A DNA stretch of 64,000 bases from IMG/VR virus record IMGVR_UViG_3300032030_000013; one strand, written 5' to 3'. Shown here piece by piece: positions 18,398-54,263 of the stretch. This stretch comes from a virus (taxonomy: Duplodnaviria > Heunggongvirae > Uroviricota > Caudoviricetes). The stretch's first letter is position 1. Each line of letters opens with the position of its first letter. The translations under genes were made by a program, and so were the position numbers. Under the pieces are notes generated by a model. That model was given only the letters and a program-made list of their open reading frames with translations. It made no database searches and had not been told where the DNA came from.

Positions 18398-18418
18398 TTA
18401 TATTATCAATATATTTAT

Positions 18419-18796: not shown

Positions 18797-18798
18797 AA

Positions 18799-19059
18799 TT
18801 ATTTTAATTTTACATATATATTTACAGAATCCTCAAAACTTTCCATTGGTTTTAATTTTAAAACTTTTTCTGTTGCTTCTCCAAAGAAATCTTTATCTTT
18901 TTTAATTTCTTCAATAGTTGCAAATTCAATTATTTTATCTTCAATATTTATGATAAATATATCTGGATCTTTAATTCCTTTACAATCTGTAGACCAAATA
19001 GTATTTTTAATTTGTTCTTCAGAGTTCATTTCAGTTATAAAATTATTAATATCTTTCAT
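18799..19059 (-). CDS. hypothetical protein, tag family (MKDINNFITE)
   Basis: 86 aa. Confidence 0.45.
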   Translation of the reverse strand: MKDINNFITEMNSEEQIKNTIWSTDCKGIKDPDIFIINIEDKIIEFATIEEIKKDKDFFGEATEKVLKLKPMESFEDSVNIYVKLK

Positions 19060-19082
19060 TACTCTTCATCATATATATATTT

Positions 19083-32066: not shown

Positions 32067-32183
32067 ATTATTTAAGTTGAAATTTATTTGTTATTCTCTT
32101 TTGAGATAAATTAATTTTATATAAAAATAAATATTTTCTTTCCTAATAGAAAATATATGCAATTTCCTTATTAGTTATTAAAT

Positions 32184-33911
32184 TTAGCAATTTCTACGAA
32201 GAGCTTTCATCTTTGCAACAATTGAATTCTGATAAGCTTCCATAGGATTTTCCTTAGCTTCATTTACATAAACAGGATTTTGTTGATTGAAATCAACGTT
32301 AGCCCAGAACTTCTCAATTTGACCTTCCTTCATGAAGTCATACATACGAGAACTTCTAATAATTTCTTGTTGACGAGCTTCTGTAAGAAGTTCCCAAGAA
32401 GGACGATATTCAGCAGGCATGTTTTCTACAACATAAACTCCTTTATATTTATTGTTCTTTCCTTCTTCTTCAACAATTTTGTTAACTGATGCATTATCGT
32501 CATTTGCAATTGATTCAAGTAAACTATCAATTTCTTCTAAACGACCAGCCTTTTGAGATTCCATAAATGCAGAAACATTCTCATTTACTTTATTTTCAAT
32601 AGTTTGTGATTGTTCAGGAGCAAATTCTTCAGTAATCCATCCTTCTACTACTGGAGCAAATTCTTCAGTAATCCATCCTTGAATTTCAGGTGAGAATTCC
32701 TCTACGATCCAATTTTGTACTTCAGGTGAGAATTCTTCAACTACCCAGTTCTGAACTTCTGGAGCAAATTCTTCAACTACCCAGTTCTGAACTTCTGGAG
32801 CAAATTCTTCAACTATCCATTGTTGTACCATTGGAGCGAATTCTTCATTAACCCACTTTTGAACTTCAGGATTATATTCTTCATTAATCCAATTTTCTAC
32901 GCCTGTAGCAATAGTTTCCATTGATTCATTAACTTTAGTATCAATCTTTTCATCAATATCTTCGTTAATTTCATTAGATACTTCTTGCTTGAATTCTGGA
33001 GCAAATTCTTCCTTTACCCATTGTTCAATAGCTTCGTAATTAACTGGCTTAACTGATTCTCTAGTCTCTTCTAAACTTTCTTTTGCAACATGCAATTCAG
33101 CTTGGAGAGATTCTACTTTTTTAGCAAGCTCTTCAACAGCTTCTCTAAGTTTTTCCATATCGGTATTATCATTGCCATTATTTTTGTTATCTTCTTTATC
33201 ATTATCCTTATCTTTAGAGTCATCTTTATCCTTGTCATCTTCCTTAGGTTTATCCTTTGGTTTATCATCTTCCTTAGGTTCTTCTTTAGGTTCTTTATCT
33301 TTATCCTTATCATCATCATCAGATAAAAGATCATCAGAACCTTCAACGATTACCCAAGTTTCATTGTTACCTTCTTCTAAACCTTCATTAAGACATTCAA
33401 GTTTTTGATTCTCTTTAAGAGTAAGTTTGGCTTGACTAAAACCTGGAGTACCGACCAAATCGTAAGTCTTAATAGTAGATAACGTTACACGACCTTCATT
33501 AGTGATAGTACCTGCACCTCTTGAAGATATATACAATGGAAGACCGCCTTCTACAATTGCTTGAGCAATTTTTCCACTTGGAGTATTCAAAAGCAAGATA
33601 TCACCAGTGATGGTTCCATCTTCATTCATTTGAATAGATTCAATCTTGTGAGATACATTTTGTAAATTAATATTCATTGAGTTTGGGTGTTCCAATTCAC
33701 CAGGACAACCTGATTCTTTGATAACTTTTTGTAAAGACTCAACCATCTGCTTATAATTTTCTTTATCATAAACACGATTATTTTGATTCTTTATACCACA
33801 AACACCAAATACACCATGAAGACGCATACCGTTGCTACCTTTACTTTCAACGATTTCAAGATCTGAAACTTTACCAAGAGTCTCATAAATCAAGCAACGT
33901 TTATCTGTCAT
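32184..33911 (-). CDS. prohead protease - scaffold fusion protein
   Basis: N-terminal about 190 aa (LHGVFGVCGIKNQNNRVY ... LEHPNS ... ISSRGAG) resembles phage prohead serine protease domains. Then a D/K-rich low-complexity linker, then a coiled-coil and acidic repeat region. Immediately upstream of the MCP. Confidence 0.55.
   Translation of the reverse strand: MTDKRCLIYETLGKVSDLEIVESKGSNGMRLHGVFGVCGIKNQNNRVYDKENYKQMVESLQKVIKESGCPGELEHPNSMNINLQNVSHKIESIQMNEDGTITGDILLLNTPSGKIAQAIVEGGLPLYISSRGAGTITNEGRVTLSTIKTYDLVGTPGFSQAKLTLKENQKLECLNEGLEEGNNETWVIVEGSDDLLSDDDDKDKDKEPKEEPKEDDKPKDKPKEDDKDKDDSKDKDNDKEDNKNNGNDNTDMEKLREAVEELAKKVESLQAELHVAKESLEETRESVKPVNYEAIEQWVKEEFAPEFKQEVSNEINEDIDEKIDTKVNESMETIATGVENWINEEYNPEVQKWVNEEFAPMVQQWIVEEFAPEVQNWVVEEFAPEVQNWVVEEFSPEVQNWIVEEFSPEIQGWITEEFAPVVEGWITEEFAPEQSQTIENKVNENVSAFMESQKAGRLEEIDSLLESIANDDNASVNKIVEEEGKNNKYKGVYVVENMPAEYRPSWELLTEARQQEIIRSSRMYDFMKEGQIEKFWANVDFNQQNPVYVNEAKENPMEAYQNSIVAKMKALRRNC
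32625..32895 (-). repeat. in-frame tandem 36-nt repeats (about 7 copies) inside the scaffold gene, encoding W(I/V)(V/T)EEFAPEVQN
   Basis: Two copies are nucleotide-identical (32741-32776 and 32777-32812). Flanking copies are diverged. Confidence 0.75.
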
Positions 33912-34029
33912 ATTATTGGTTTACAATATTTTTGTTATAATATTTCAAATACAATTAAAAATAATATACTTTTTTTTAAATTAATATTAAAAAATACATA
34001 TTTTAATAAAAATAAATATTTTTTAAGAT

Positions 34030-34064
34030 CAAAATAAAAAGGAATTACTTTCATAATTCCTTTT
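34030..34064 (-). terminator. rho-independent terminator (GGAATTA...TAATTCC plus T-run on minus strand)
   Basis: 3' of the fibre gene 34077..35120. Confidence 0.55.
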
Positions 34065-34076
34065 ACATATATTCTT

Positions 34077-35120
34077 TTATTTAATTGTACCCATATCTTT
34101 ATATGTTTGTGGTAATTCTGATAATCCATATATTCCAGAAAGTCTAGGAAAGTTACTCCAAGCAGTTTGATATTCGGATATTAATTCATCTGGTACATAT
34201 ATTGTAGTATCAGCATCATGAAATCCATCAGTCCTTAATAATGTTGGCGGAGTTATAGCTTTACATGCCAAAACTATTTGTCCAGTACCACCAGATCTTT
34301 CATTCATATTTCGTCCCCAATGTTGTGCATCTATTTCTGTAACTGTTGTAGGTAATTCAATATATACACATTTTGTCGCACCAACAATAGCACCCATACA
34401 TGTAATACCTTCTGGAGCTATTATTTTTTCAACACCACTATTATTAAACATGTGTTCACTAATTTCATCACATCCTGGAGGCAATATTCCATCATACCAT
34501 TTTATTGATGAGCATTTATTATATAATCCAAAATATTTTCTATATTTATCTCCTCCAGTTATTGTACAATTATTCCAATTAACTTTTGTTAATGATGAGC
34601 AGTTATAAAATGGGCTATGATCATAATATCCTCTAGCCCAAGATGCAACAATTGGTGGCATAGTTACTTCTTTTAATGATGTGCAATTTTTAAATAAATC
34701 AGTAAGACCACTATTACTTGTAAAATATTTAAATTCATTAAAATATATTATTGAAGTTCCACTAATTTTTGTATTTGATGCAATTAAATTAATATTAGCT
34801 GCTTGTTCTGCAGTAATTCCTTCTTCAGTCCAATTAATTGCATTAAATAATATTTGTTTAGAATTTTCATCTTCAAATAATATATAATATCCATCTGCAT
34901 TTATATGTAACTGGTTGAATCTGTTTTTGATAATATTTATATATTCTTCATAAGTATATTCAGTATTGATTGTTCCAATTATATTAGTATTATTATCAAA
35001 TATTGTTTCACCATTATTTTCCCTGTTAACTAATTTATATAACTTGTTTATCAATGAAGGTGGAACATTATATTCAATTATACTTTCTTGTTGATTTACG
35101 TTTATATGTAAAGTTGACAT
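34077..35120 (-). CDS. tail fibre / receptor-binding protein paralog 3 with BspA-type leucine-rich repeats
   Basis: Shares the N-terminal module (M..HI.VNQ..NVP..LI.KLY.L ... YTYEEY ... GYYILFED) with 35245..37044 and 37073..39226. The C-terminal part is LRR_5-like. Confidence 0.6.
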   Translation of the reverse strand: MSTLHINVNQQESIIEYNVPPSLINKLYKLVNRENNGETIFDNNTNIIGTINTEYTYEEYINIIKNRFNQLHINADGYYILFEDENSKQILFNAINWTEEGITAEQAANINLIASNTKISGTSIIYFNEFKYFTSNSGLTDLFKNCTSLKEVTMPPIVASWARGYYDHSPFYNCSSLTKVNWNNCTITGGDKYRKYFGLYNKCSSIKWYDGILPPGCDEISEHMFNNSGVEKIIAPEGITCMGAIVGATKCVYIELPTTVTEIDAQHWGRNMNERSGGTGQIVLACKAITPPTLLRTDGFHDADTTIYVPDELISEYQTAWSNFPRLSGIYGLSELPQTYKDMGTIK

Positions 35121-35145
35121 ATTATATGTTCATATATTTATATTG

Positions 35146-35220
35146 ACCATGTTGGAGTTGAATCCCAGTTAATTGTTTCATTTGGACCTAATCCCATATA
35201 TTCTTCTATTAAATATTATT
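35146..35220 (-). pseudogene. orphan remnant of a fibre C-terminal module (encodes ..LIEEYMGLGPNETINWDSTPTWSI*) with no start codon
   Basis: Nucleotide and protein similarity to the 3' end of 37073..39226 (..LIEEYMGLLPGESINWDSTPTWGV*). Lies just downstream of the stop of 35245..37044, whose product ends LIEEYMNEK*. Confidence 0.5.
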
Positions 35221-35244
35221 TAATTTTATTTTTTAGTTTTATGT

Positions 35245-37044
35245 TTATTTTTCATTCATATATTCTTCTATTAGTCCAGCCATACCACCCATGCCTTGTT
35301 CAATAGTAATTCGTGGACATATACTTAAAGGTTTAATTTTATCTATAACACTTGAGAAATATGAAGTAGCTTTATATGTTTCTACTGCAGAATCTGGTAC
35401 ATAAATACCATCATTAATGATAGTAGTTCTAAACATATCTTCATTAAATAAGCATATTCCATTATCACCATCTCCAGTATCTACCCAATCACTCATTATT
35501 TCAAGTTGAGGAGGTGTTGCATTATTAAATATAAGTATATCTACAGTAAATCCTGCAAATGTACTAGCCTGTACTTTATTTAATTTTTTAAAATATAATG
35601 TTTTAATAGTTGAATGGTCATGATGTTGATTATGAACATTATTTGAAAATAATGTTATATATGGCATATATATCCTTTCACCAAAATATGATACTCTATT
35701 TCCTCTTGAATTATTAGATGCATATGAATCATGAATTTCAGTAATTTTTGGTAAATAAAAACTATAATTACCTATCATACCTATAAATGGAGCAGTAGAT
35801 CCATCATAATTAGATCCTCTTCCATGATTATATACACCACCAAATTTTATACAACGTGGTAAATAAAATACTTTATGTGTAAAATTAGTTTTATAAAAAG
35901 CATTTCCATCAATTATAGTAAGATTTTCTTGAAAATCACTAAAATTAACTGTAGTTAAATTTGTACAATTATAAAATATATGATATGATAAATTTGATAA
36001 ATTTACTGGTAATTCTACTTCTCTTAAATTAACGCAACTTTCAAACATACCATTACCATTATATGAAAAATCACCATCTATTTCAATAAATGTTCCAATT
36101 AATTTTGCTGTAATTAATTGTGTACATCCATAAAATGTTTTATTTCCACATAGTGTGTTTAAATTTTCTAAATTAACATATTTTATATTTGTTTGTTTAG
36201 TAAAAGTAGTATCTGCTACATATGTACAATTTGGTAAATCTAATAGTTCAATGTCTAATAATGTTACATAATTACCCGCGCCAAAAACGCCTGAATCACG
36301 ATTTCCAATAAATGTAGATATATTTTGTAAATCTTCATTTGTTAGAACTAATCCTGTTTGTCTTAAAGAGTCTTTATATAAACATGTAATATTTGATAAA
36401 TCTATTGAAGTTAATGAAGTACAACCAGAAAATGCAGATTCTCCAATATAACTGCATTTTGATAAACTACCTATTGAAGTTAATGATGTACAACCTTTAA
36501 ATGCATTATAAGGTACTGGAGCTGTTAAATTACTTAAGTCTATTGATTTTAAATTTGAATCTCTAAAACAAAAACTTCTATTATTACCAGGATTATTAGA
36601 TTGTGTATTTCTACTATTTAAATCAGAAAAATATTTAAATTCATTAAAATATTCTATTTCAGTTGATTTAAACATATCCCATGGATTAAACATAATATTT
36701 CTAGCTACATCTGTAGATATACCTGTACCATCACCGAATCCTTTGTCTAATAAAGTATTTAAAACAAAATCATCTTGAAATAAAATATAATATCCTTCAG
36801 CTTCTATAGTTAAAGTACCATCAAAATATTGATTTATTTTATCTACATATTCTTCATATGTATATCCTTTTGTTTTAAATGATCCTACTAATGCCGTATC
36901 TATTTTGCCTTCATCCATAGCATCCCATACTTCGTTTCCAGCTTCAGTACTTTTAATTAATCTATAAAGTTTGGTAATTAATTCAGAAGGAACATTAGTT
37001 TCTTGAACATTTATTTGATTAACTTTAATATGTTTTTTAGACAT
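35245..37044 (-). CDS. tail fibre / receptor-binding protein paralog 2 with BspA-type leucine-rich repeats
   Basis: Conserved N-terminal module. Central repeats of the type F.GCTSLTSI.L..I..I...AF. 599 aa. Confidence 0.6.
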   Translation of the reverse strand: MSKKHIKVNQINVQETNVPSELITKLYRLIKSTEAGNEVWDAMDEGKIDTALVGSFKTKGYTYEEYVDKINQYFDGTLTIEAEGYYILFQDDFVLNTLLDKGFGDGTGISTDVARNIMFNPWDMFKSTEIEYFNEFKYFSDLNSRNTQSNNPGNNRSFCFRDSNLKSIDLSNLTAPVPYNAFKGCTSLTSIGSLSKCSYIGESAFSGCTSLTSIDLSNITCLYKDSLRQTGLVLTNEDLQNISTFIGNRDSGVFGAGNYVTLLDIELLDLPNCTYVADTTFTKQTNIKYVNLENLNTLCGNKTFYGCTQLITAKLIGTFIEIDGDFSYNGNGMFESCVNLREVELPVNLSNLSYHIFYNCTNLTTVNFSDFQENLTIIDGNAFYKTNFTHKVFYLPRCIKFGGVYNHGRGSNYDGSTAPFIGMIGNYSFYLPKITEIHDSYASNNSRGNRVSYFGERIYMPYITLFSNNVHNQHHDHSTIKTLYFKKLNKVQASTFAGFTVDILIFNNATPPQLEIMSDWVDTGDGDNGICLFNEDMFRTTIINDGIYVPDSAVETYKATSYFSSVIDKIKPLSICPRITIEQGMGGMAGLIEEYMNEK

Positions 37045-37072
37045 TCGTTATTTACTTTATAATTTTATTATA

Positions 37073-39226
37073 TTATACTCCCCAAGTTGGAGTTGAATCC
37101 CAGTTAATTGACTCTCCTGGTAATAATCCCATGTATTCTTCTATTAGATATTCATTTTTACTATGTACTCCATCTGGCATATCTGGAGCAGCATCATATT
37201 CTGCTTTTGTTGCAAAATGCCCCATGCTTTCTAAAGCTATTATTCTATTTTCAGTAGCATCATTTGTAAACTTGGTAATATCAGTAAATTTTTGTCTATA
37301 CTCACTGTCTAAATTTGGTGAACTTAAATCAGGATTGATTGCATCCCAGTTTAAATATGTATTAATTGCAGATCTAGGTACAACCAAATAATGGAAAGTT
37401 TCATTAGATCCGCTCTCAGCTTTCATATATAATGATATACTACTAAATATACTGCCTCCATATTGATATGTTGATTGCCAATATTCTGGTGGTGTTGTAT
37501 TATTTATGACCAAATATTTTATATTTGCCCAAAGTACATTAGCTGCCCACTTGTCGATACGTTGCCCACGTTCTCCAAATGGTACCGCGCCTTTATATTC
37601 CTGTACCCAATTATTGTTTTCTCTACGTCTTCCTAGACCTTCATAGTTTGTATTATAATATAAGGTTCCATCCCATTCCGTTGCATATATGTCGGCGTAT
37701 GACTTACCACCAAATAGCCATCCATTTATTTTACGAATATTTTTTAGATAATAGATATCCATTGTTGATCCACACATTACTGTTCTATTTAATCTACCAA
37801 CACCTGGAGTATCATATCCACTAATACTGTTTGTATGTGTTATGTTAGGAAGATACATTGATCTAACATTTGAATCTTTAAATGGTCTATAACTACAAAC
37901 ATTAGCTTTTATGTATATAATTGATGGTAATGTTAATATACCTGTCATACAATCAGTATCAAAATATGTTATTCTATTTATGATATCATTGACACCTGTT
38001 AGATTGACACATCCCATAAACGCACTTTGACCTAATTTATTTGCACTTAATGGAATTGATACTGATGTTAGTGTTGTGCAATTTGTAAATCCAGTTACTG
38101 TTGTTACATTACCTAAGTTCGATACTGTTTTTATTTTACATCCTCTAAATGCATCTTCACTAATTTCTGTTAATTGTGGTAGACTTAAGTCATCTATTAC
38201 CAAATTTGTACAATATGCAAATGCCCCTTTATATATTTTTGTTATATTTTCTAATGCTTCTGGAGATATTGATGTTAATTTATCACAGTATTCAAATGTG
38301 TATTCACATATCGTACAGTTTCCCAATTCAGATATTTTCTTTATTTGTGTATTGCGAAATGCTTCATTTCCTATAGTTGTTATATTAGGCAATTTTAAGT
38401 CATTTATTATCAAGTTTTCACAGTATTGAAATGAATAATGTCCAATACGTGTAATTTGTTCTAATATGCCGTCTTCAATATATTCAAGTGAAATACAGTG
38501 TAAAAATATTCTATCTTGTATGACTGTACAGTTTCCTAAGTCATATATCTTTTTTACTTTAGGACCTCTCCATACATTATTTGTCTTTTCCCATTGAAAG
38601 ATTCCTCCAGAGAAACCGTTTGATTTAAGGTTAGGCAAACGTAAAGATCCTTTTTCTGAATTCTGTCCATTAAAGAATTCTAAATTAGAACAATATGCAA
38701 ATGCATTAATTCCAAATGTTTCAATATTTGTTAAATCTATGCTTGTTAATGATTGTGAACTAGCAAATTCACTTGTTGCTAATGCTTTCACATTTGTTAG
38801 TTTTGATAGCTCATCAAATGTTTGTATTTCATTATTGCCTTTAAATATTCGTCTAAATCCATAATAATCAGAATTACCTGAATTATTTACTTCTAAACCT
38901 GTAATAACTCCTTCATAATGTTTTTCTGGATATATTACATTAACTAATTGGTTTAATATTATTGATTCTACAACAGGATCTTCAAAATATACATAATATC
39001 CTTCAGATATAATATTAAGATTATTGAAGAATGAATGTAATGCTTCTACATATTTATCATATGTATATCCTGTCTTAAATGTTCCTTGTATAGAGTCTTC
39101 ATTACAGTCCCATGAATCCAATCCTTTTAATTGATTACTATATAATGTATATAGTTTTGTTATAAGTTGAGCAGGTACGTTATTTTCCTGCCCAACTGTT
39201 TGAGTTAATTTAATATGTTTTCCCAT
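37073..39226 (-). CDS. tail fibre / receptor-binding protein paralog 1 with BspA-type leucine-rich repeats
   Basis: Conserved N-terminal module. Multiple AF.YC.NL..I.LP.I..I...AF repeats. 717 aa. Confidence 0.6.
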   Translation of the reverse strand: MGKHIKLTQTVGQENNVPAQLITKLYTLYSNQLKGLDSWDCNEDSIQGTFKTGYTYDKYVEALHSFFNNLNIISEGYYVYFEDPVVESIILNQLVNVIYPEKHYEGVITGLEVNNSGNSDYYGFRRIFKGNNEIQTFDELSKLTNVKALATSEFASSQSLTSIDLTNIETFGINAFAYCSNLEFFNGQNSEKGSLRLPNLKSNGFSGGIFQWEKTNNVWRGPKVKKIYDLGNCTVIQDRIFLHCISLEYIEDGILEQITRIGHYSFQYCENLIINDLKLPNITTIGNEAFRNTQIKKISELGNCTICEYTFEYCDKLTSISPEALENITKIYKGAFAYCTNLVIDDLSLPQLTEISEDAFRGCKIKTVSNLGNVTTVTGFTNCTTLTSVSIPLSANKLGQSAFMGCVNLTGVNDIINRITYFDTDCMTGILTLPSIIYIKANVCSYRPFKDSNVRSMYLPNITHTNSISGYDTPGVGRLNRTVMCGSTMDIYYLKNIRKINGWLFGGKSYADIYATEWDGTLYYNTNYEGLGRRRENNNWVQEYKGAVPFGERGQRIDKWAANVLWANIKYLVINNTTPPEYWQSTYQYGGSIFSSISLYMKAESGSNETFHYLVVPRSAINTYLNWDAINPDLSSPNLDSEYRQKFTDITKFTNDATENRIIALESMGHFATKAEYDAAPDMPDGVHSKNEYLIEEYMGLLPGESINWDSTPTWGV

Positions 39227-39230: not shown

Positions 39231-42200
39231 TTATGCCAAGAATTTATTTAATAGCTTAAACATTATCAAACTGTCTGTAGATGTTGATTTCAAATCAATA
39301 CTATTAACCAATGAGTTATCTGTTATTGTTACACCATTATTTGTTAAACTTGCACAGTCAGATATGTTTATTAAACTTGGTTTACCTAGACTTATTGTAG
39401 TTAATGCAGGATTATTTTTACAAATAAGACCAGCATTACAGTTTCCACTTAAGTCTAATTCTTGTATTGTTGAGCTATTCTCAATAAGTAGATCCATACT
39501 TGTTGCAGGACAGTCCTTTAATATCAGTTTATTTAATGATCTTAACTTTTTCATATTAAAGTATTGTTTTCCTTGTGTAGCAAAATCTTCAAAGTTATAT
39601 GTTAATCCTGTAAAGTCAAGTATCTGTATGTTAGGCATATAATTGAATATGCTTTCATTTTTACCAGATGCGATAAATGACTGTGCATCATTTGCCATAT
39701 CTATTGTGTTTCCTTGGTCATCTTTAAAATCTAATGTTCCGTTTAATACTGATAGGTCTGACTTATATAATGATGTTATAGGACTATAGTATTCTGTATT
39801 ATATTCCTTAAGCTTTCTTAATATAGGTGCGAATGCTTTAGAGCTTTGCGACAATATGAAGTTAGAATCATCATATAATATGATATTGCATGCATATGTA
39901 TGAGTGCCGATACTTGGAGAATTATATTTGACACTTCCATATAATGTAAAGTATTTCATATCTTCACAAGTGGTATTGAATAATGTTATGTCATCACATG
40001 TCTTAAACTTAATACTATTACGAACACCAGTCAATATGCCATTAACTACCTTCTTAGTACGATTGATATAACTATCGGCTGTTGTCAATACTTTAATTAA
40101 TTCTCCATCTGCTACTTCATTAGTAGTTACATAATATTCAGTTGAATCATTAACTGATAATTCATTTCCTGTCCATCCTGTTGATGCAGTTTCTCTGATA
40201 GGTAATGAGTTATTGATTGCCCCAATTCTGAAACTTACACTATGTATTGTAGCATCAAATTCTGTAGTAGTATCTAACTTAAATTCTTGTTGCATTCCAC
40301 CTTTAGGAATGATGAATATGTCTCTAAGCTGACCATTTACCATAGCATTATTTCCGAACATATTACGAGCAGTTACTTCGTCACATATGAATCGTCTAAC
40401 ATCACGACCGTTTACAGGTTCAAACTTAAAGTCACGAGCAGTTATTGTAGGATCTATATATACAATTACTGATGAATTAATTGATTGATCACCTATTTTT
40501 GTTGCAGTAATAGTAATAGTATATCTTTCAGGTTTTGTTGTTTGATCTAATATAAGATTTCTTGTAAATCCATCAGGAGCATTTTCGAATGTGTTTCCTT
40601 CAGCTCCATTGATTGTCCATACATAATTTTCAACACTTTCAGAAGAAAGTAAGAATGATGTACATTTAAATTTAATCAATGATCCTTCATTAGCAACGAT
40701 TATAGATTCACCGGTTGTTGTATCTGTTTCTATATGTATGTTTCCTGATACTGAAATCTGAGCATAGTTACTTTCTTGGTCAATAACTAAGTTAGAGTTA
40801 ATATTACTTAAAGTAAATACATTTTCACCAAATAAGTTAGATAATTCAGTTAATTGCGCAGGTTTCATATTCTCACCTTCAATTTTAACATATCCTTTTA
40901 ATGATGAATTTGTACCCCAGTTTACGCCAATTCCATTTTCATCAGGCATTCCGTTTAGGTATCCTAATCTTACTACATCTTTATATGTTATTGGTCTATA
41001 GTCAGGATCATTAAATGACTTATTATAGTTCCATCTAATATTATCTAATGATGCGGTGCAATTATTACCAATATATTCAAGTACTTTACGTTCTAATGCA
41101 TCTCCAGATAATTCAGGATTGTCTTGACTAACATAATATTCAATAGAATTAAACCAATCTAATACAAATTCTAATGTACATACATTATTAGCAGTAGATC
41201 CTTTGAATGTCAATGATTTAAATTCTTTAGGAATTCTATTCATCTTTTTAAATGTAGCTACAGTAGGATTTTCTATATATATGATATCTCCATTCTCATC
41301 TCTCTGTACTTCCCCATTAATTTCATAAGGAACTCTTTCAGTACCTGATGAGTTATATGATGTTTCCCAGAATGTTATGTTTTTCCATGATGTATTAGTA
41401 ACATTAATACTAATAACGCCAGGTGTTGTTTTTACAGTAGATCCAGTATTTTCTAAAGTTCTTCCTGGCAAATGGACGTTTTCATATACGTTTCCTAATG
41501 CAGAAGAAGTCAATGTTGTAAATCCAGTACCTATAGCATATATGTTCTTTAGTTTTGCTCTATTAGATTTTATTATATCACCATCCTTAAGGCCAAGTTG
41601 TCCTGTTATATTATATGTTATAATGTTTTCTAATGCATCTGGTGCTCCTTCAGAATCATCTTCAGAAGTTGTAGATGAAGAGTTTGTTATACTTGGAGCT
41701 ACCTTATGAATCCATCCAGTGAATTGCGTTCTACTTGGACTTTCTAAGTCTTCAGGCAATCTACTACCTATACTTAATTCTTTAATAGTTGCTCCTAATA
41801 CTGGGTCAACTGCATTTTGGAATGATAATACTTGTAATCCTTGTCCAAATACATCCAAGTCAATCTTCTCCATGAATAATGCACCAAATAAGTGTGATGG
41901 GTCTTTTGTAGAGAATGACCAGTTTGTAGCATCCCATCTTGCAGGAGAAGATTTGGTAGCTCTATATAATCCTCTATTTAATGTAGTATCCATCTGTGTC
42001 AATTTAAAATATGATTCAGATGTAGGCACAACTGTTATGATAGCTTCAGTTCCTTGAGGTTTATCAACAGCCATATATATTCTTGATGAATTAAACTGTC
42101 CACAAGTCCATTTAGAATCATAATAGTTCATTGATGTAGATATCCACCAGTGACGGTGTGAAGTACGAGATCCTTGTAACCAGTTAAGCCATGTAGCATC

Positions 42201-45200
42201 CTGAGCTTTTTCTACGTACTTATACATACCAGATTCATTATATACTAATTCTGCCCATTTATTAGCAAAATTGTTATCAAACATTTCTGTTATCTTATCG
42301 TATGTCAATCCACCTTCATATAATGCTTGTGCAGTTTCAGGAACAATTACATCTCTCCAATAATCCCATTTTTCTAAGCAATCCCATAGAACATTAGAAG
42401 TAGTTTTTGATCTTCCTGAATATGCATATGTCTGTGATGTAGCATCAAGCATTGTTGTACGGTCCATAGGAGGATCAAATGCAAGACCACCAGTATTCTT
42501 ATTACCTAATGCGATATCCATATCCCATGGCTCTAAGAACCAGTGTAATCCATCATATGTTTTATATTGAGCATTACGTTCTACAGAGTCAACAAGACCA
42601 AATCTTATGTAGAATATATAATAAGCAGCTAACTTATAAAGATCTAAGTGGTCATGTGCTTCAGATTTAAATTTATTTAATGCTGCTGTAGAAACATTGC
42701 CATTTATAATTGGGTTTCCTTGTGAATCTTTATTAAGCTGTCCTATTGAACAGATCCATCTCAAGAAATCTATCCATGGTTGTGCTTTCTTAATGAACTT
42801 AGATGTTCCTTCTGGCCATTTATAATTTGGATCTGCTGCTTGTTCTGGAGTCTTATGAACACCACTAAATTTATTTAAATTCTCAGCAGCATCATCTTCA
42901 GAAATATCATCTTCATCAGGGAATATCATTTCAAAATAGTCTTCCCAGTAATAGTTCAATGGTTTCTTATTACCATTTTCATCAAGTATGAATTCTCCAG
43001 TTGAAGGATCTGTTTCATATTTAATATCTGAAGCGGCATGATCATTTGTAAATGTTTGATCATCTTCAGTATTACCGTCTTTATCAATAACAATGTCATT
43101 AGGTACATTAAAATCCATGAATGATGTTAATGGAGTGTTAATAAGTACGCATTCAATTCTTAATACACGTTTATTATCCCAAACACAGAATTCATCTTGG
43201 TCATATCCTTTTTTAGTCTTACCATTTATAATTACTGGAGTATCTGCACCTTCTGTTGTCATACAGAATGGATCATTACCATCACCCCAAAGATAAATAG
43301 AACGTTCGCCAAATATATGATCTGATTTCTTATCATCCATTAATACGAATTGTCCTAAGAACTTTTTAGTAGGTATTGCTGAAGATGTATCAGTATAGAA
43401 TACAACAGCAGGACGTGAATCAGGAGCATTACGTAACTTATATGGGAATGCTGTTAGTTGTGCATTTCCAGTTTCAGCTATACGTAAGTCACCCCATGTA
43501 TGATTTTTTGCGCTTACTCCATTTATTTCTACATCAGTATTTCCATATCCATCAGTCCATACAGATGATCCAACTTCATTTAATAGTGTATCATTATGAA
43601 TAACTGTTTGGTTAGATGTAAATAACTGTGGAGAAGTTCTTAATTTATATTCTATTACACCATTTGATTTCTTAAATGGGGCATTATACCATGTTTCATT
43701 AATTAATCTAAGTAATCCTCCATTATGAACACCAGATGAGTCAGCATAGTTTGCTTGTAAAACATATTTATTAGAAGGAATTGAACCTATGTTAATAGGA
43801 TATCTATTCTTAACTAACCTTAAGTTTTTAACACCATCTTTAAATTCAACTTGTGGATTATTTTCACCCTTTGATTTGTTAAGCCAGAATTTAAATGAAG
43901 CAATAGGATAGTTCAATGTTGACTGACCATGTTTTCTCATTTTAACTGCGGTAGCATTGAATCCTAAATACTGACCATCTGAAGGCGTTGTATATAAAAT
44001 GTTAACTGGAGTTTCAGAATCTTCTTTATTAACACCAGGAGTCAATATATTATTAATGTTACCTGATATTAAGAATGTATCTATTTTTGATACGCATCTA
44101 TCATAATCAATTTCAGATGATCCAGAACCTTTTGTAATTGAGTTTCTAATAATGATTGATGATTTATTAGGAGCATCAAATAAGAAGTTTGTAAATGCAT
44201 CATAAACTGGCATATTTCTCCACCAAACTCTTATATTATATAAAGATATTTGAGAGTTTGTTCCACCAATTCTAATCCATCCATTTGCATTACTTATTGT
44301 TTGGTCACTTAAGTTAGCACCACGTTCAAGTACACCATTATTAACAATATAAACGTTTTTAGCATCTTTAATGGCAGTATTAGGCATAAATATGAATGTT
44401 AACTGAATACGTTCATTAGATTTATAGTTTGTCTTAATGACTTCAGTTGCACCTGAATACATAACCGCCTTTGTAGGATAAATATATATCGCAGGATTTG
44501 TACGAGTAGACCCTTCATAAGTTCTACTTGTTTCTCCGTTAGCACCTATTATAATCAATGGATCTTCATCGTTATTAACTGAACCTGACATAAAGTCAAT
44601 TTCTATTGTACGTCCATATTCACTTAATAAATATTGATTTCCACTTGGAAATGCATTAAAGTTAATTGTTCCAAAACATGTTTCTGAATTGAATGTCAAA
44701 CTATTATTTGACCATCCATTTGCAGAATCCCAAGGAATTGACGGAGAAAAATTCATTTGTGGAATATTTGCAGTATTCAATATTGTACCTGTTGGCATCC
44801 ATCTAGTTCTTGATGTTTCAGATTCACTGTTTGTACGGCCATAAGCATTTAATTTAAATACATATCCAGCCCATTCATTAAATTCAAATTCAAATGATGA
44901 TCTTTCAATAATAATTTGTCTATCGAATGCTTTATATCTACGTGGTTCTCCAGATTCAGAATCTTTAATATTACTTAATACAGTACCAACCAAATGCCAG
45001 TTTTCTGATTCTAGATAAGGTTGATCTGGAACAAATCTTAATGGCTCTGCAACCTGGTTTCTAATACCTGATAACGTAGCCAAATATGTTCTAGAATCTT
45101 CAATAACTTCGCCAGTTTCAGTATCATATTGACATAACTCCCATTCAACACTAATAGATGCATCAGTACCACCATTTGTGAAATATGCCCAGTCTAATAT

Positions 45201-46337
45201 AAACTCTTCATATTGAATACCAGTCAAATAAATTCCTTCCATACCATTTGATGTCTGTAAAGAACCAGCAGGTATAGATAGTTTAATGATTATAAAGTGG
45301 TTATTTAATTCTTCTTGTTCATCAGATTGAGTTATAAATTCATAAAGTAATGAATTAGAATCAAAGTTAATACTATTATCTGTTGTTGACATATTACCTT
45401 TGATTAATAGATAATGCTTAGGATGCATACTTTCTTCTGTACCAGATTGTGGCCAAACACATTCTCTAATAATATCGTTAGGAATTGTTAATGAAGTAGC
45501 AACACGTAATCCTTCAATATTTTTTGTTATTGTTCCTTTAGGATTAGAATAATCATCTATGTAATATGAAATTGTCTGTGAAACAGGAGTTGAAATACTT
45601 CTATTAACTATCATATTAATAGGAAGGTTAGAACCAATAGAAATTGGATCAAACCAATTAGATGTAGCATATTCTGCTGATATATTATAACTAATAATAT
45701 TAATAGGAATTTGTGGGTTAATTTTTTCTGCAGATATATCACCAGTTAATCTTATAGATAATGTTAATGTATTTGAACCTGTTTGCAAATAATCAAAACA
45801 GTCAAATAACTGTACGTCTGTTGTACTAGTACTATCATAAGTACGAACATCTTCGTATGTAACTTGATTATTAGGTCCTACAAGTTTAAATTTAACTTCA
45901 TAACTTGAGTTAAGTCCACTAGTTTTATCATCAATATATACTTTAAACTTAATCATTTGACGAGCACTACCACTTAAAATATTCATTGTTTTAAGTACTT
46001 CATCATTTTCCCCTACACAAATAATCTTATGAGGTGCAGGGATATCAAATTCAAGTAATACTAAATCTTTATATTTTTGAGCTATGGCATTTTCATTACC
46101 ACCCGCTTCTTCTACTGCTTTAAAATATCTAATCTTAGATTCTTCACTTGAGAACAATAGTTTTCTATTATTATCAATATCTTCGTGAACATAAAATGGC
46201 TTACGTAAATGACTCTGTAATAATTCACGAATTGATCCACCACTAATTGTGTCAACTATTGTTTTTCTATTAGTTATTATATCTCTATTAGATATCCAAT
46301 CAATAAATTCATTTAAACTTCCTGTATAAAGACCCAT
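39231..46337 (-). CDS. giant virion-associated protein (2368 aa; putative central fibre/adhesin or baseplate-associated)
   Basis: Single uninterrupted ORF, S/T/N/G-rich and beta-rich composition, located in the structural module upstream of the fibre genes. No catalytic motif recognised. Confidence 0.6.
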   Translation of the reverse strand: MGLYTGSLNEFIDWISNRDIITNRKTIVDTISGGSIRELLQSHLRKPFYVHEDIDNNRKLLFSSEESKIRYFKAVEEAGGNENAIAQKYKDLVLLEFDIPAPHKIICVGENDEVLKTMNILSGSARQMIKFKVYIDDKTSGLNSSYEVKFKLVGPNNQVTYEDVRTYDSTSTTDVQLFDCFDYLQTGSNTLTLSIRLTGDISAEKINPQIPINIISYNISAEYATSNWFDPISIGSNLPINMIVNRSISTPVSQTISYYIDDYSNPKGTITKNIEGLRVATSLTIPNDIIRECVWPQSGTEESMHPKHYLLIKGNMSTTDNSINFDSNSLLYEFITQSDEQEELNNHFIIIKLSIPAGSLQTSNGMEGIYLTGIQYEEFILDWAYFTNGGTDASISVEWELCQYDTETGEVIEDSRTYLATLSGIRNQVAEPLRFVPDQPYLESENWHLVGTVLSNIKDSESGEPRRYKAFDRQIIIERSSFEFEFNEWAGYVFKLNAYGRTNSESETSRTRWMPTGTILNTANIPQMNFSPSIPWDSANGWSNNSLTFNSETCFGTINFNAFPSGNQYLLSEYGRTIEIDFMSGSVNNDEDPLIIIGANGETSRTYEGSTRTNPAIYIYPTKAVMYSGATEVIKTNYKSNERIQLTFIFMPNTAIKDAKNVYIVNNGVLERGANLSDQTISNANGWIRIGGTNSQISLYNIRVWWRNMPVYDAFTNFLFDAPNKSSIIIRNSITKGSGSSEIDYDRCVSKIDTFLISGNINNILTPGVNKEDSETPVNILYTTPSDGQYLGFNATAVKMRKHGQSTLNYPIASFKFWLNKSKGENNPQVEFKDGVKNLRLVKNRYPINIGSIPSNKYVLQANYADSSGVHNGGLLRLINETWYNAPFKKSNGVIEYKLRTSPQLFTSNQTVIHNDTLLNEVGSSVWTDGYGNTDVEINGVSAKNHTWGDLRIAETGNAQLTAFPYKLRNAPDSRPAVVFYTDTSSAIPTKKFLGQFVLMDDKKSDHIFGERSIYLWGDGNDPFCMTTEGADTPVIINGKTKKGYDQDEFCVWDNKRVLRIECVLINTPLTSFMDFNVPNDIVIDKDGNTEDDQTFTNDHAASDIKYETDPSTGEFILDENGNKKPLNYYWEDYFEMIFPDEDDISEDDAAENLNKFSGVHKTPEQAADPNYKWPEGTSKFIKKAQPWIDFLRWICSIGQLNKDSQGNPIINGNVSTAALNKFKSEAHDHLDLYKLAAYYIFYIRFGLVDSVERNAQYKTYDGLHWFLEPWDMDIALGNKNTGGLAFDPPMDRTTMLDATSQTYAYSGRSKTTSNVLWDCLEKWDYWRDVIVPETAQALYEGGLTYDKITEMFDNNFANKWAELVYNESGMYKYVEKAQDATWLNWLQGSRTSHRHWWISTSMNYYDSKWTCGQFNSSRIYMAVDKPQGTEAIITVVPTSESYFKLTQMDTTLNRGLYRATKSSPARWDATNWSFSTKDPSHLFGALFMEKIDLDVFGQGLQVLSFQNAVDPVLGATIKELSIGSRLPEDLESPSRTQFTGWIHKVAPSITNSSSTTSEDDSEGAPDALENIITYNITGQLGLKDGDIIKSNRAKLKNIYAIGTGFTTLTSSALGNVYENVHLPGRTLENTGSTVKTTPGVISINVTNTSWKNITFWETSYNSSGTERVPYEINGEVQRDENGDIIYIENPTVATFKKMNRIPKEFKSLTFKGSTANNVCTLEFVLDWFNSIEYYVSQDNPELSGDALERKVLEYIGNNCTASLDNIRWNYNKSFNDPDYRPITYKDVVRLGYLNGMPDENGIGVNWGTNSSLKGYVKIEGENMKPAQLTELSNLFGENVFTLSNINSNLVIDQESNYAQISVSGNIHIETDTTTGESIIVANEGSLIKFKCTSFLLSSESVENYVWTINGAEGNTFENAPDGFTRNLILDQTTKPERYTITITATKIGDQSINSSVIVYIDPTITARDFKFEPVNGRDVRRFICDEVTARNMFGNNAMVNGQLRDIFIIPKGGMQQEFKLDTTTEFDATIHSVSFRIGAINNSLPIRETASTGWTGNELSVNDSTEYYVTTNEVADGELIKVLTTADSYINRTKKVVNGILTGVRNSIKFKTCDDITLFNTTCEDMKYFTLYGSVKYNSPSIGTHTYACNIILYDDSNFILSQSSKAFAPILRKLKEYNTEYYSPITSLYKSDLSVLNGTLDFKDDQGNTIDMANDAQSFIASGKNESIFNYMPNIQILDFTGLTYNFEDFATQGKQYFNMKKLRSLNKLILKDCPATSMDLLIENSSTIQELDLSGNCNAGLICKNNPALTTISLGKPSLINISDCASLTNNGVTITDNSLVNSIDLKSTSTDSLIMFKLLNKFLA

Positions 46338-53754: not shown

Positions 53755-54258
53755 TTATTGCTTAATTAGTTTCAAATCTGAATCCAATAAGCATTTAACT
53801 TGTGAATAAATTTGATATGAACTAAATTTAACATTTTCAACATCTGTTAAATCTTCTTTGGCATAATTAACCCATTTAAGTAATCGTTTATACGTATCCT
53901 TAGTAAAAAGATCATTTTTTAAAGAAGATTTATACTTAAGAAATTTTACATCAGGATTAATAAAATTATATATAGAAGACATTCGAAGTATCATATCATC
54001 TACTTCGTTAATATCCCAATTTAAAGAATTATTAAATACATCATTTTTTATTAATGCATTATAACATACATCCCAAAGTTCTGGAGTGTGTAATATACGA
54101 TCAATACGAAGCAGGTCAACTACAATACGCCCATCTTCAGTTTCACGTCCAGCTTTCTTTAATGTCTTTTCATCAATATCAAACTTAGCACAAATTTCAT
54201 CTTTACGATCTTGTGTTAAGTTCTTAAACCATTGTTTATTTCTAAAATTTTCTGCCAT
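53755..54258 (-). CDS. hypothetical protein
   Basis: 167 aa. Confidence 0.45.
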   Translation of the reverse strand: MAENFRNKQWFKNLTQDRKDEICAKFDIDEKTLKKAGRETEDGRIVVDLLRIDRILHTPELWDVCYNALIKNDVFNNSLNWDINEVDDMILRMSSIYNFINPDVKFLKYKSSLKNDLFTKDTYKRLLKWVNYAKEDLTDVENVKFSSYQIYSQVKCLLDSDLKLIKQ

Positions 54259-54263
54259 CTTAT

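What the first reader, a model, noticed from the sequence alone, without database searches (positions are those of the whole stretch)
34077..39226. Three paralogous BspA-type LRR receptor-binding proteins with shared N- and C-terminal modules, plus a recombination-scar remnant
The ORFs 37073..39226, 35245..37044 and 34077..35120 share an about 100-aa N-terminal module (M.KHIK..Q...NVP..LITKLY.L ... YTY(E/D)(E/K)Y ... GYY(I/V)(L/Y)F(E/Q)D), likely for tail attachment. Their LRR_5-type middles are completely different. A conserved C-terminal peptide LIEEYMGL.P.E.INWDSTPTW ends the first gene. It reappears as an orphan, start-less fragment at 35146-35220, just after the second gene, which ends LIEEYMNEK*. 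This looks like a scar of cassette exchange. Multiple exchangeable receptor-binding proteins suggest a broad or switchable host range against BspA-bearing (Bacteroidota/Treponema-like) surfaces.
Basis: seen in the sequence. Interest (0 to 1): 0.6.

Follow-up and report, generated by a model that had tools for sequence, protein, structure and literature searches.

The report
Shuffled LRR adhesin genes in megaphage
A very large gut or rumen phage carries three related leucine-rich-repeat genes next to its tail-fibre-like gene, and comparison with relatives shows these genes are swapped, fused and deleted as cassettes, which left a small dead gene fragment behind.

Summary
ORFs A (37073-39226), B (35245-37044) and C (34077-35120), all on the minus strand, are Pfam LRR_5 proteins. 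They share a significant ~95-aa N-terminal module. A start-less 25-codon copy of A's C-terminal peptide lies at 35141-35215, between B and C.

Related megaphage contigs show that the fragment, the spacer and the start of C are colinear with "A-type 3' end, spacer, next gene". So the fragment is the 3' stump of an A-type gene, left when the B cassette came to lie between A and C. B's own end (LIEEYMNEK*) is native. Relatives carry 1 to at least 5 such genes, N-modules paired with unrelated LRR bodies, an intragenic A/B chimera, and a mirror-image 5' stump.

The array lies in a late structural gene block: Cthe_2159 protein, 2368-aa giant protein, LRR genes, prohead protease, capsid, sheath, tube. 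The giant protein is homologous to the Hankyphage DGR-targeted putative tail fibre. The pair "giant protein plus N-module-LRR protein" recurs in Crassvirales cr272_1/cr273_1.

A role in host recognition on the virion is therefore plausible but unproven. The claims about "BspA-bearing host surfaces" and "completely different middles" are not supported. I rate it a new variant of a known kind, of moderate interest.

The parts
39231..46337 (-). Giant 2368-aa protein, probably the tail-fibre or adhesin scaffold. Its stop lies 4 nt before the start of A.
   Evidence: ORF. Residues 491-1525 are 24% identical (E 1e-19) to the Hankyphage p00 ORF 31489-38226, which carries the DGR variable repeat and follows the tape measure, baseplate hub and minor tail genes. 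It is 34% identical over its full length to cr272_1 gp54 and its cr273_1 counterpart. It has no Pfam family and no PDB sequence match.
37073..39226 (-). LRR_5 paralog A (717 aa), the conserved 'core' type. It has the N-module (38942-39226), an LRR_5 solenoid, a conserved C module (IIALESMGHFATKAEYD...EYLIEEYM) and an 18-aa tail (GLLPGESINWDSTPTWGV).
   Evidence: LRR_5 at 4e-41. The AF2 model has pLDDT 90.5 and pTM 0.84. It matches LRR_5 crystal structures 4fs7, 4h09 and 4gt6. Orthologs at 39-85% identity occur in the megaphage loci that carry an A-type gene. The C module is the most conserved segment, at 68% mean pairwise identity.
35245..37044 (-). LRR_5 paralog B (599 aa), a rare accessory cassette that ends LIEEYMNEK*.
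   Evidence: LRR_5 at 3e-23. The only close relative is the mosaic protein P0013, at 64% identity over 73% of B, with the same ending. B's N-module is 72.5% identical to that of the third gene in L001.
35138..35221 (-). Orphan 3' stump of an A-type gene: (Y)LIEEYMGLGPNETINWDSTPTWSI*. It has no start codon and is out of frame with B.
   Evidence: It is colinear with the A-type 3' ends of L003 and L001, and the next gene follows in each case. It is 82-85% identical at the nucleotide level to A-type tails, with 4-6 synonymous and 3-5 non-synonymous codon differences and no frame disruption. The 29 nt between B's stop and the stump show no detectable homology.
34077..35120 (-). LRR_5 paralog C (347 aa), a short accessory cassette that has lost the LIEEYM ending.
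   Evidence: LRR_5 at 1.8e-11. Its N-module is 89% identical to that of the second gene in L003, while the bodies are only 29% identical. Its body is 86% identical to that of the third gene in L001.
34063..34080 (-). Second scar: an out-of-frame trace IKEYM* that overlaps C's stop codon. It is the fourth copy of the LIEEYM-coding 17-mer.
   Evidence: translation; repeat family D7: 34066-34082, 35195-35211, 35257-35273, 37130-37146. Homology to L003 resumes here, at the LIEEYM* of its second gene.
34034..34062 (-). Hairpin followed by a T-run at the end of the array, probably a terminator. It was read by eye and the consensus scanner did not call it.
   Evidence: Sequence. Equivalent hairpins follow the last LRR gene in L003 and L012. 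It was not reported by the scan, because the stem is AT-rich.

Best explanation
**What it is.** The locus is a copy-number-variable tandem array of paralogous LRR_5 genes. It belongs to the late structural gene block of a contractile-tailed megaphage, directly downstream of a giant tail-fibre-like protein.

**Protein architecture.** Each protein has three parts:
- a conserved ~95-aa alpha/beta N-module;
- a variable LRR_5 solenoid;
- in some types, a conserved C module ending LIEEYM, with or without a 16-19-aa tail.

**Most likely function (inferred).** The proteins are virion-borne adhesins or receptor-binding subunits. They would dock on the fibre apparatus built by the giant protein through their conserved ends, and present different LRR surfaces to the host or its surroundings.

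**How it evolves (shown).** Whole cassettes and half-cassettes are exchanged between related phages. Preferred breakpoints are the N-module/LRR boundary (GYYILFED) and the 3' end of the gene. The orphan at 35138-35221 is the leftover 3' end of an A-type gene that once directly preceded C. B and its 3' flank now sit between A and that stump, and the left junction is non-homologous. The stump is probably not translated (inferred).
For: **Paralogy and domains:**

**Scar**
- In both L003 and L001, an A-type 3' end, the 17-nt spacer and the next gene's N-module are contiguous. They align with the window's orphan, spacer and C at 89.5% over 353 nt (L003) and 82% over 1185 nt (L001).
- B's ending NEK* is shared with P0013, where a terminator follows it.

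**Cassette shuffling**
- N-module and body identities are decoupled: C versus L003 gene 2 is 89% against 29%, and C versus L001 gene 3 is 48% against 86%.
- P0013 is an A-type N-terminal half joined to a B-type C-terminal half.
- The array holds 1, 2, 3, 3 and at least 5 genes in L007, L003, the window, L001 and L009.
- L001 carries a mirror-image 40-codon 5' stump of a P0013-type gene. The deletion runs from about codon 41 to the stop.

**Structural and fibre context**
- Gene order is Cthe_2159, giant protein, LRR genes, protease, Gp23-like capsid, sheath, tube.
- The giant protein is homologous to the Hankyphage DGR target, which PMC12135933 calls the putative tail fibre.
- The same pair of giant and N-module-LRR genes, overlapping by 4 nt, occurs in Crassvirales cr272_1. 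Its gp53 has the N-module (56 bits) and ends IIKEYM*.
- In the 55 N-module proteins fetched, the module sits at or within about 15 residues of the N-terminus of LRR_5 proteins in all but six. In those six (P0124, P0145, P0255, P0165, P0236, P0142) a partial module lies further in.
- The three proteins have no signal peptide and no transmembrane segment, so they are not exported BspA-like surface proteins.
Against: - There is no direct evidence that these proteins are in the virion or bind anything.
- LRR solenoids are not the usual trimeric fibre or spike fold of phage receptor-binding proteins.
- The genes lie immediately upstream of the prohead protease, a position also compatible with head-internal proteins.
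- Among A-type orthologs the LRR region is no more variable than the N-module (50% against 40% mean identity). A is therefore a conserved component rather than a fast-evolving specificity tip.
- The order of events cannot be resolved: either B was inserted, or an intervening A-type gene was deleted.
Confidence: 0.62

Rival explanations
1. The LRR proteins are head-internal or ejected proteins. The N-module would be a capsid-targeting or scaffold-binding domain. After injection, the LRR domains would bind host proteins, for example for takeover or anti-defence.
For: The genes lie directly upstream of the prohead protease and the Gp23-like capsid gene. In L001 the protease hits Peptidase_S77, the T4 gp21 type. 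LRRs are classic protein-protein interaction modules. The motif LIE|EY and the near-invariant E14 resemble T4-type L/I-x-E cleavage sites; this is my own reading and was not tested.
Against: The genes are linked to a giant protein homologous to a putative tail fibre, with a 4-nt gap or overlap, in two unrelated phage lineages. Nearby is a Cthe_2159 carbohydrate-binding protein. E14 lies inside a predicted beta-strand of a folded domain, unlike a short targeting peptide. The candidate cleavage context is not conserved across paralogs.
Confidence: 0.13
2. The proteins are on the virion but serve environmental adhesion, not primary host-receptor binding. They could tether the phage to mucus, plant fibre, host-animal matrix or non-host bacteria, as proposed for Ig-like decoration proteins. 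This would fit the matrix-binding and co-aggregation roles of bacterial BspA-type proteins.
For: The LRR_5 domain matches bacterial cell-surface adhesin-type structures (4fs7, 4gt6, PcpA, TpLRR). Copy number varies from 1 to at least 5, accessory copies are lost easily, and C looks decayed. This suggests the accessory copies are dispensable. The A type is conserved rather than hypervariable.
Against: Nothing here distinguishes this from host-receptor binding. The genes sit in the fibre gene block, not beside capsid decoration genes.
Confidence: 0.15
3. The orphan is functional. Either it is joined to B by translational bypassing or frameshifting across the 62-nt gap (as in T4 gene 60), or it is translated as a 19-aa micro-ORF (MGLGPNETINWDSTPTWSI).
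For: Identical 17-mers (TAATAGAAGAATATATG) provide matched take-off and landing codons 62 nt apart. The stump keeps an open frame and the ancestral stop. It contains an in-frame ATG.
Against: B's ending NEK* recurs in P0013, with a terminator and no landing site downstream. The stop lies three codons after the putative take-off codon, not adjacent to it. The stump, spacer and next gene together form an ordinary gene junction in L003 and L001. Several N-module proteins end naturally at LIEEYM.
Confidence: 0.04
4. The array is a programmed switching system, such as a shufflon, an invertase-type tail-fibre switch or site-specific cassette integration, rather than the product of sporadic recombination.
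For: A conserved 17-mer lies at the 3' end of every cassette. Cassette content differs between near-identical phage backgrounds: L012 and L001 are 96.6% identical across the A 3' end and the start of the next gene.
Against: All genes are co-oriented. There are no significant inverted repeats; the longest are AT-rich and of low complexity. The junction at the orphan is not at the 17-mer, and B is not fused in frame. The 17-mer is explained by conservation of the LIEEYM peptide, including in cr272_1, where it reads IIKEYM. Only the structural ORFs between 25364 and 58751 were scanned and none is a recombinase; the rest of the window was not checked.
Confidence: 0.04

Closest known systems
Multi-RBP phages with conserved N-terminal anchor modules, such as Ackermannviridae CBA120 TSP1-4 and the 'anchor-branch' depolymerase sets of Klebsiella phages including the jumbo phage PhiK64-1 (from my own knowledge)
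   Same: Several paralogous proteins are encoded in tandem. Each has a conserved N-terminal part and a divergent distal part. They evolve by swapping modules at the boundary. The genes lie in the tail-fibre region.
   Different: Here the distal module is a BspA-type LRR_5 solenoid, not a trimeric beta-helix spike. A conserved C-terminal module (LIEEYM, with or without a tail) is also present. Attachment and oligomeric state are unknown. No sequence or fold similarity to those anchors was found.
DUF7941 proteins of Chimalliviridae phage Goslar (bioRxiv 10.64898/2026.04.21.720040)
   Same: A phage-specific N-terminal module is followed by LRR/beta-helix, carbohydrate-binding or glycosidase domains. 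Many paralogs occur per genome. They are proposed to be host-recognition elements. Predicted head-to-tail docking of a C-terminal region onto the next N-domain offers a model for why both ends are conserved here.
   Different: Pfam gave no DUF7941 hit for A, B or C. The phage lineage is different, with a T4-like Gp23 capsid. Head-to-tail assembly was not tested here. L007 keeps the C tail although it has only one LRR gene.
Hankyphage (Bacteroides phage p00) DGR-diversified putative tail fibre (PMC6199706, PMC12135933)
   Same: The middle of the window's giant protein (residues 491-1525) is homologous to the DGR target ORF. In Hankyphage that ORF sits in the tail module.
   Different: Hankyphage diversifies one C-terminal variable repeat by retrohoming. 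This phage has no homologous C-terminus and instead carries a downstream array of exchangeable LRR genes. I did not search the window for DGR components.
Bacterial BspA-type LRR_5 surface proteins (Tannerella BspA, Treponema LrrA/TpLRR, pneumococcal PcpA, Bacteroides and Eubacterium structural-genomics proteins)
   Same: The LRR_5 repeat fold and its C-terminal cap motif (...IYVPxxxVxxYKxxxxW...PLSE) are shared.
   Different: The phage proteins have no signal peptide, no Ig-like, T9SS, dockerin or choline-binding anchoring domains, and a phage-specific N-module and C module.
Mosaic tail-fibre genes of T-even and lambdoid phages (gp37/gp38, stf/tfa), which recombine at conserved linker motifs (from my own knowledge)
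   Same: Short conserved segments flank variable receptor-binding segments and act as recombination points. Gene stumps and chimeras are common.
   Different: The protein fold is different. Here the conserved segments are whole terminal domains of separate tandem genes.

Membership tests
Pfam LRR_5 (PF13306, BspA-type leucine-rich repeat) | Profile match above the curated gathering score (27.7 bits) | tested here: met
   A scores 140.3, B 82.5 and C 44.5 bits.
Pfam LRR_5 (PF13306, BspA-type leucine-rich repeat) | Fold similarity to solved LRR_5 structures | tested here: met
   The model of A (pLDDT 90.5) matches 4fs7, 4h09, 4gt6, 4fd0, 4cp6 and 6mlx at Foldseek E 9e-8 to 1e-4. The A-type profile matches 4fs7 at 2e-40. 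B and C were not modelled.
BspA-like bacterial cell-surface proteins (full architecture) | N-terminal secretion signal or lipoprotein signal | tested here: not met
   No hydrophobic N-terminal segment: the highest Kyte-Doolittle 19-residue window starting within the first 40 residues is 0.4 or less. No dedicated signal-peptide predictor was available.
BspA-like bacterial cell-surface proteins (full architecture) | Cell-surface anchoring or accessory domains (Big_2, T9SS CTD, dockerin, choline-binding) | tested here: not met
   Pfam finds only LRR families in A, B and C, apart from one weak sub-threshold DUF3834 match in B.
Phage receptor-binding or tail-fibre proteins with a conserved N-terminal anchor | Conserved N-terminal module with a divergent distal domain among co-encoded paralogs | tested here: met
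   N-modules are 41-48% identical and bodies 24-34% identical among A, B and C.
Phage receptor-binding or tail-fibre proteins with a conserved N-terminal anchor | Encoded in the tail or fibre gene block | tested here: met
   The genes lie adjacent to a homolog of the Hankyphage putative tail fibre and near a Cthe_2159 protein. Sheath and tube genes are in the same block. The prohead protease and capsid genes are also adjacent, so the position is not exclusive to the tail.
Phage receptor-binding or tail-fibre proteins with a conserved N-terminal anchor | Physical presence on the virion tail and binding to a host receptor | not testable with these tools
   The phage is uncultured. No proteomic or structural data were found.
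Phage receptor-binding or tail-fibre proteins with a conserved N-terminal anchor | Trimeric fibre or spike fold | tested here: inconclusive
   The single-chain model is an LRR solenoid. Oligomeric state could not be predicted.
DUF7941 module proteins (Chimalliviridae) | Sequence match to the DUF7941 N-terminal module | tested here: inconclusive
Translational bypass element (T4 gene 60 type) | Matched take-off and landing codons, a stop adjacent to the take-off codon, and the coding gap conserved in relatives | tested here: not met
   Matched 17-mers exist. However, the stop is three codons downstream, and the relative P0013 has the same NEK* followed by a terminator with no landing site.
Invertible or shufflon-type tail-fibre switches | Inverted repeats flanking segments, and a nearby site-specific recombinase | tested here: not met
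   All cassettes are co-oriented and only AT-rich chance-like inverted repeats were found. No recombinase was seen among the ORFs scanned, but the whole window was not scanned.
DGR-diversified tail fibre (Hankyphage type) | Template and variable repeat pair and a reverse transcriptase next to the target gene | not tested
   Only the homology of the giant protein's middle region was established.

The most novel reading that the evidence does not exclude
The conserved N-module and the conserved C module or tail may be complementary docking elements. If so, the LRR paralogs would assemble head-to-tail, or onto the giant protein, into a heteromeric and easily re-composed 'adhesin chain' on the tail. 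This LRR_5-based receptor-binding apparatus would be a distinct and previously undescribed class. It would be shared by horizontal transfer between Lak-like megaphages and some Crassvirales that infect Bacteroidota, and it would serve as an alternative to the DGR-diversified tip of the homologous Hankyphage fibre.
Probability: 0.2. Interest if true: 0.75.

Novelty: new variant of a known kind. Interest (0 to 1): 0.5.

Why it matters
How uncultured gut and rumen megaphages and many crAss-like phages recognise their hosts is essentially unknown. This locus supplies a concrete candidate apparatus that can be recognised from sequence: a giant fibre-like protein followed by N-module-LRR_5 proteins. 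It occurs in two unrelated phage orders and is linked by homology to the Hankyphage DGR-targeted fibre. It also shows in sequence how such an apparatus is re-tooled, through cassette gain, loss and fusion at conserved ends that leave datable stumps. The N-module profile could be used to find candidate host-recognition genes in metagenomic phages. The individual LRR domains are small, monomer-like and easy to express for binding screens against Prevotella or Bacteroides isolates.

Tried and rejected
1. **Nucleotide search against GenBank phages.** blastn of the locus found no match.
2. **IMG/VR scan with protein A.** It found no relatives. Relatives came instead from the protein cluster database and contig look-ups.
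3. **Word-indexed search with the N-module profile.** It returned only 4 fragments.
4. **Exhaustive HMMER job.** This was largely wasted. My alignment A4 let LRR columns into the profile, so the hits are dominated by generic LRR_5 proteins. I rescued it by re-scanning the returned proteins with an N-module-only HMM.
6. **Translational bypass or frameshift joining B to the orphan.** Rejected, because P0013 shares NEK* followed by a terminator.
7. **Homology of the 29 nt between B's stop and the stump to A-type coding sequence.** Not significant: 804-961 of 1000 shuffles scored as well. The left junction is therefore non-homologous or too decayed to read.
8. **Promoter and terminator scan.** Uninformative: it found fewer sigma-70-like sites than in shuffled sequence.
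9. **Literature searches for BspA/LRR_5 phage receptor-binding proteins.** These found only the Goslar preprint, as an analogue, and an annotation in Vibrio jumbo phage pir03.
10. **Giant protein as a crAss-type virion RNA polymerase.** Considered, but there is no PDB sequence match at all, and its homology to a temperate siphovirus tail-module ORF argues against it.


Full report
**1.

All three exceed the Pfam LRR_5 (PF13306) gathering score, with E-values of 4e-41, 3e-23 and 1.8e-11.

The shared N-terminal region is statistically solid:
- Pairwise BLASTP gives A-B 1.7e-22, A-C 8e-14 and B-C 8e-23.
- The first 110 residues of each protein recover the other two in a six-frame search of the window at 6e-19 to 7e-14, with nothing else below 0.05.

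The orphan peptide YLIEEYMGLGPNETINWDSTPTWSI* is at 35141-35215, with its stop at 35138-35140. This is 5 nt from the stated coordinates.
- It is 80% identical to A's last 25 residues (E 1e-10).
- It scores 46.6 bits against a profile of A-type C-termini.
- It has no start codon and is out of frame with B. The 17-mer TAATAGAAGAATATATG, which encodes (L)IEEYM, occurs at 35257-35273 (the end of B) and 35195-35211 (the orphan), 62 nt apart.

The same sequence, with 0 mismatches over 7 kb, occurs in ENA contig k141_2243798. The window extends about 8 kb beyond the start of that contig, so it comes from a different record. An assembly artefact is therefore unlikely.

**2. What the phage is**

The window has 23-38% G+C. 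It encodes a T4 Gp23-like major capsid protein. The best database relatives of that protein, at 31-37% identity, are an uncultured 462-kb phage, Sphingomonas phage PAU, Tenacibaculum jumbo phages and Lak megaphages. An ortholog of A lies on a 439-kb contig.

Read in the direction of transcription, the genes are:
- an SPFH protein and two unknown genes;
- a Cthe_2159 carbohydrate-binding protein;
- a giant 2368-aa protein;
- A, B, the orphan and C;
- the prohead protease;
- the capsid protein;
- the tail sheath and the tail tube.

This is the late structural gene block of a contractile-tailed megaphage. None of the 37 long ORFs has a Shine-Dalgarno-like motif, and none ends in TAG. Both features fit the Lak/crAss-like world of phages that infect Bacteroidota. 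That link is an inference from general knowledge of translation initiation in that phylum.

**3. What the orphan is**

I fetched related loci through orthologs of A. In L003 (A ortholog 83% identical) the gene order is giant protein, A, a 439-aa LRR gene, protease. In L001 (85% identical) it is giant protein, a 727-aa A-type gene, A, a 354-aa LRR gene, a 40-codon ORF, protease.

- Window 35221..34870 covers the orphan, a 17-nt spacer and C's N-module. It aligns with L003 12070-12422 at 89.5% over 353 nt. That L003 stretch is the last 85 nt of A, the spacer and the next gene's N-module.
- Window 35221..34077 aligns with the equivalent L001 stretch at 82% over 1185 nt.

So the orphan is the 3' end of an A-type gene that once directly preceded C. 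In this phage, B and its 3' flank now sit between A and that stump.

The 29 nt between B's stop and the stump show no detectable homology to A-type sequence. The left junction is therefore non-homologous or decayed.

B was not truncated by this event. The mosaic protein P0013 ends with the same ...GLIEEYMNEK* and is followed there by a hairpin terminator and the protease gene.

The stump differs from A-type tails by 4-6 synonymous and 3-5 non-synonymous codon changes. Its frame is intact and it keeps the ancestral stop. It is most simply a fairly young remnant. The two copies are only about 78-82% identical. The structure therefore arose by recombination between diverged genomes, not by a recent internal duplication.

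**4. Cassette exchange is shown directly by the relatives**

- *Copy number varies.* There is 1 LRR gene in L007, 2 in L003, 3 in the window and L001, and at least 5 in L009.
- *N-modules and LRR bodies are decoupled.* The pattern is below. The switch point is at GYYILFED|ENSKQ.

| Comparison | N-module identity | LRR body identity |
|---|---|---|
| Window C vs L003 gene 2 | 89% | 29% |
| Window C vs L001 gene 3 | 48% | 86% |
| Window B vs L001 gene 3 | 72.5% | 34% |

- *Recombination also occurs inside the LRR.* P0013 is an A-type N-terminal half fused to a B-type C-terminal half.
- *L001 has a mirror-image scar.* A 40-codon 5' stump of a P0013-type gene scores 29.7 bits against the N-module HMM. 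The deletion runs from about codon 41 to the stop. The flanks match L012 at 88-90%.
- *C carries a second trace.* An out-of-frame IKEYM* at 34063-34080 is the fourth copy of the 17-mer, and a terminator-like hairpin follows it. Homology to L003 resumes exactly there, at the LIEEYM* of its second gene.

**5. Protein anatomy**

An HMM of the N-module finds it in 55 of the proteins fetched. In all but six it sits at or within about 15 residues of the N-terminus, and these are LRR_5 proteins of roughly 340-1000 aa plus a few fragments. In P0124, P0145, P0255, P0165, P0236 and P0142 a partial module lies further in.

AlphaFold2 models the N-module as a small beta-alpha-beta-alpha-beta-alpha domain. 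The pLDDT is 82 when modelled alone and about 67-89 within full-length A. It has no informative structural neighbour:
- in BFVD the only hit below E 0.001 is a Siphoviridae LRR protein, and the next (E 9e-3) is the cr273_1 LRR protein.

Full-length A models confidently (pLDDT 90.5, pTM 0.84), including its C-terminal 60 residues. It matches BspA-type LRR_5 crystal structures.

The C-termini of N-module proteins fall into four classes:
- LIEEYM plus a 16-19-aa tail (...I[NQ]WD..PTW..), the A type;
- LIEEYM as the last residues;
- LIEEYM plus NEK (B and P0013);
- no such extension, ending soon after the generic LRR_5 cap ...PLSE.. (C-like).

Among the A-type orthologs, the C module (residues 656-698) is the most conserved segment. 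Its mean pairwise identity is 68%, against 38-51% elsewhere and 40% for the N-module. A is therefore a conserved core component, while B and C are accessory.

None of the three proteins has a signal peptide or a transmembrane segment. They are not exported like bacterial BspA proteins.

**6. Evidence bearing on function**

The giant protein encoded 4 nt upstream of A is homologous over residues 491-1525 (24% identity, E 1e-19) to the Hankyphage ORF that carries the DGR variable repeat. That ORF follows the tape measure, baseplate hub and minor tail genes. The literature calls it the putative tail fibre (PMC12135933; PMC6199706).

The giant protein is also 34% identical over its full length to gp54 of the Crassvirales phage cr272_1. 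In that phage the next gene, gp53, overlaps gp54 by 4 nt. gp53 is an N-module-LRR_5 protein (56 bits) that ends IIKEYM*.

So the pair 'giant protein plus N-module-LRR protein' is a unit that has moved between unrelated phage orders. Together with the neighbouring Cthe_2159 protein, this makes a host-recognition or adhesion apparatus the best-supported reading. The LRR proteins would dock on the fibre through their conserved termini. The docking and any binding activity are inferred, not shown.

The closest functional analogue in the literature is the DUF7941 family of phage Goslar. There an N-terminal module is followed by LRR, CBM or GH domains, with predicted head-to-tail docking. I could not test such docking here. 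L007 keeps the C tail although it has a single LRR gene. If the tail is a docking element, its partner is therefore not necessarily another paralog.

**7. Rivals**

- *Head-internal or ejected proteins.* This is suggested by the position next to the prohead protease and cannot be excluded. The linkage to the fibre homolog in two lineages argues against it.
- *Environmental adhesion rather than receptor binding.* The data are equally compatible with this.
- *Translational bypass or a micro-ORF for the orphan.* Rejected on comparative grounds, as set out in section 3.
- *A programmed invertase or shufflon-type switch.* Rejected. All genes are co-oriented, there are no meaningful inverted repeats, and the junction is not at the repeat.

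**8.

The observation and the 'scar of cassette exchange' reading are right, and comparative data now support them. The 'receptor-binding protein with a tail-attachment module' reading is reasonable but rests on context.

Three statements should be dropped:
- that hosts are 'BspA-bearing';
- that the LRR middles are 'completely different';
- that B's end is a truncation.

**9. Novelty and interest**

Modular multi-RBP sets with conserved anchors, and mosaic fibre genes with stumps, are well known. Three things appear to be new:
- the use of a BspA-type LRR_5 solenoid flanked by a dedicated N-module and C module;
- its pairing with a giant fibre-like protein shared among megaphages and Crassvirales, and in part with Hankyphage;
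- the clear record of cassette turnover.

I rate it a new variant of a known kind, with interest about 0.5.

Noticed in passing
window, all 37 ORFs of 150 aa or more; L011:3-11653; L017:5465-13563: TAG is never used as a stop codon in the window's long ORFs (TAA 32, TGA 5, TAG 0). The related locus L011 has 16-30 in-frame TAG codons per gene, and cr272_1 gp53 and gp54 have 3-4. This suggests TAG reassignment in relatives and possible avoidance or partial recoding here. Stretches without long ORFs (for example 10277-13572, 16667-19083, 54258-56049) were not checked for TAG-interrupted genes.
   Followed up: partly
window, 25 nt upstream of the 37 long ORFs: No Shine-Dalgarno-like motif (GGAG, GAGG or AGGA) occurs upstream of any of the 37 ORFs. 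This is consistent with a host that does not use SD-led initiation, such as Bacteroidota.
   Followed up: partly
window 32184-33911 (-): The prohead protease gene (phrog_207) encodes a long acidic low-complexity stretch (DDDDKDKDKEPKEEPKEDDK...). It also encodes about eight tandem copies of a motif like W(V/I)xEEF(A/S)PEVQNW. This may be a fused scaffold-like region.
   Followed up: no
L001:13279-13401: A 40-codon ORF is the 5' stump of a P0013-type LRR gene. The rest of the gene is deleted up to its terminator. It is the mirror image of the window's 3' stump.
   Followed up: yes
L015:1096-1320: In one relative, the C-terminal 57 residues of the A-type gene lie in a separate 69-codon ORF. The cause is a frameshift or an assembly error near the 3' end.
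   Followed up: no
window 39231-39600 (-), C-terminus of the giant protein: The last ~120 residues of the giant protein look LRR-like by eye (LDLSGNCNAGLICKNNPALTTISLGKPSLINISDCASLTNNGVTITDN...). The cr272_1 homolog has a similar end. Pfam did not call any family.
   Followed up: no
window 50716-52740 (-): A 674-aa protein with an SPFH/Band 7 domain (1.4e-21) is encoded within the structural gene block. This is unusual for a phage late region.
   Followed up: no
window 35121-35149 (-): The last codons of the stump (TGGTCA) and the spacer form a sigma-70-like -35/-10 pair (TGGTCA, 17 nt, TATAAT) just upstream of C. The same arrangement is present at the A-to-next-gene junction in L003. It is probably chance in AT-rich DNA, because the scan found fewer such sites than in shuffled sequence. 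It could, however, explain why the stump is retained.
   Followed up: no
P0145 (1910 aa), residues 1494-1542: Half of the N-module (HMM positions 43-90) occurs internally, just before an LRR_5 domain, in a large protein. That protein also shares weak similarity (E 2e-8) with the window's giant protein. In some phages, fibre and LRR may therefore be fused in one polypeptide.
   Followed up: partly
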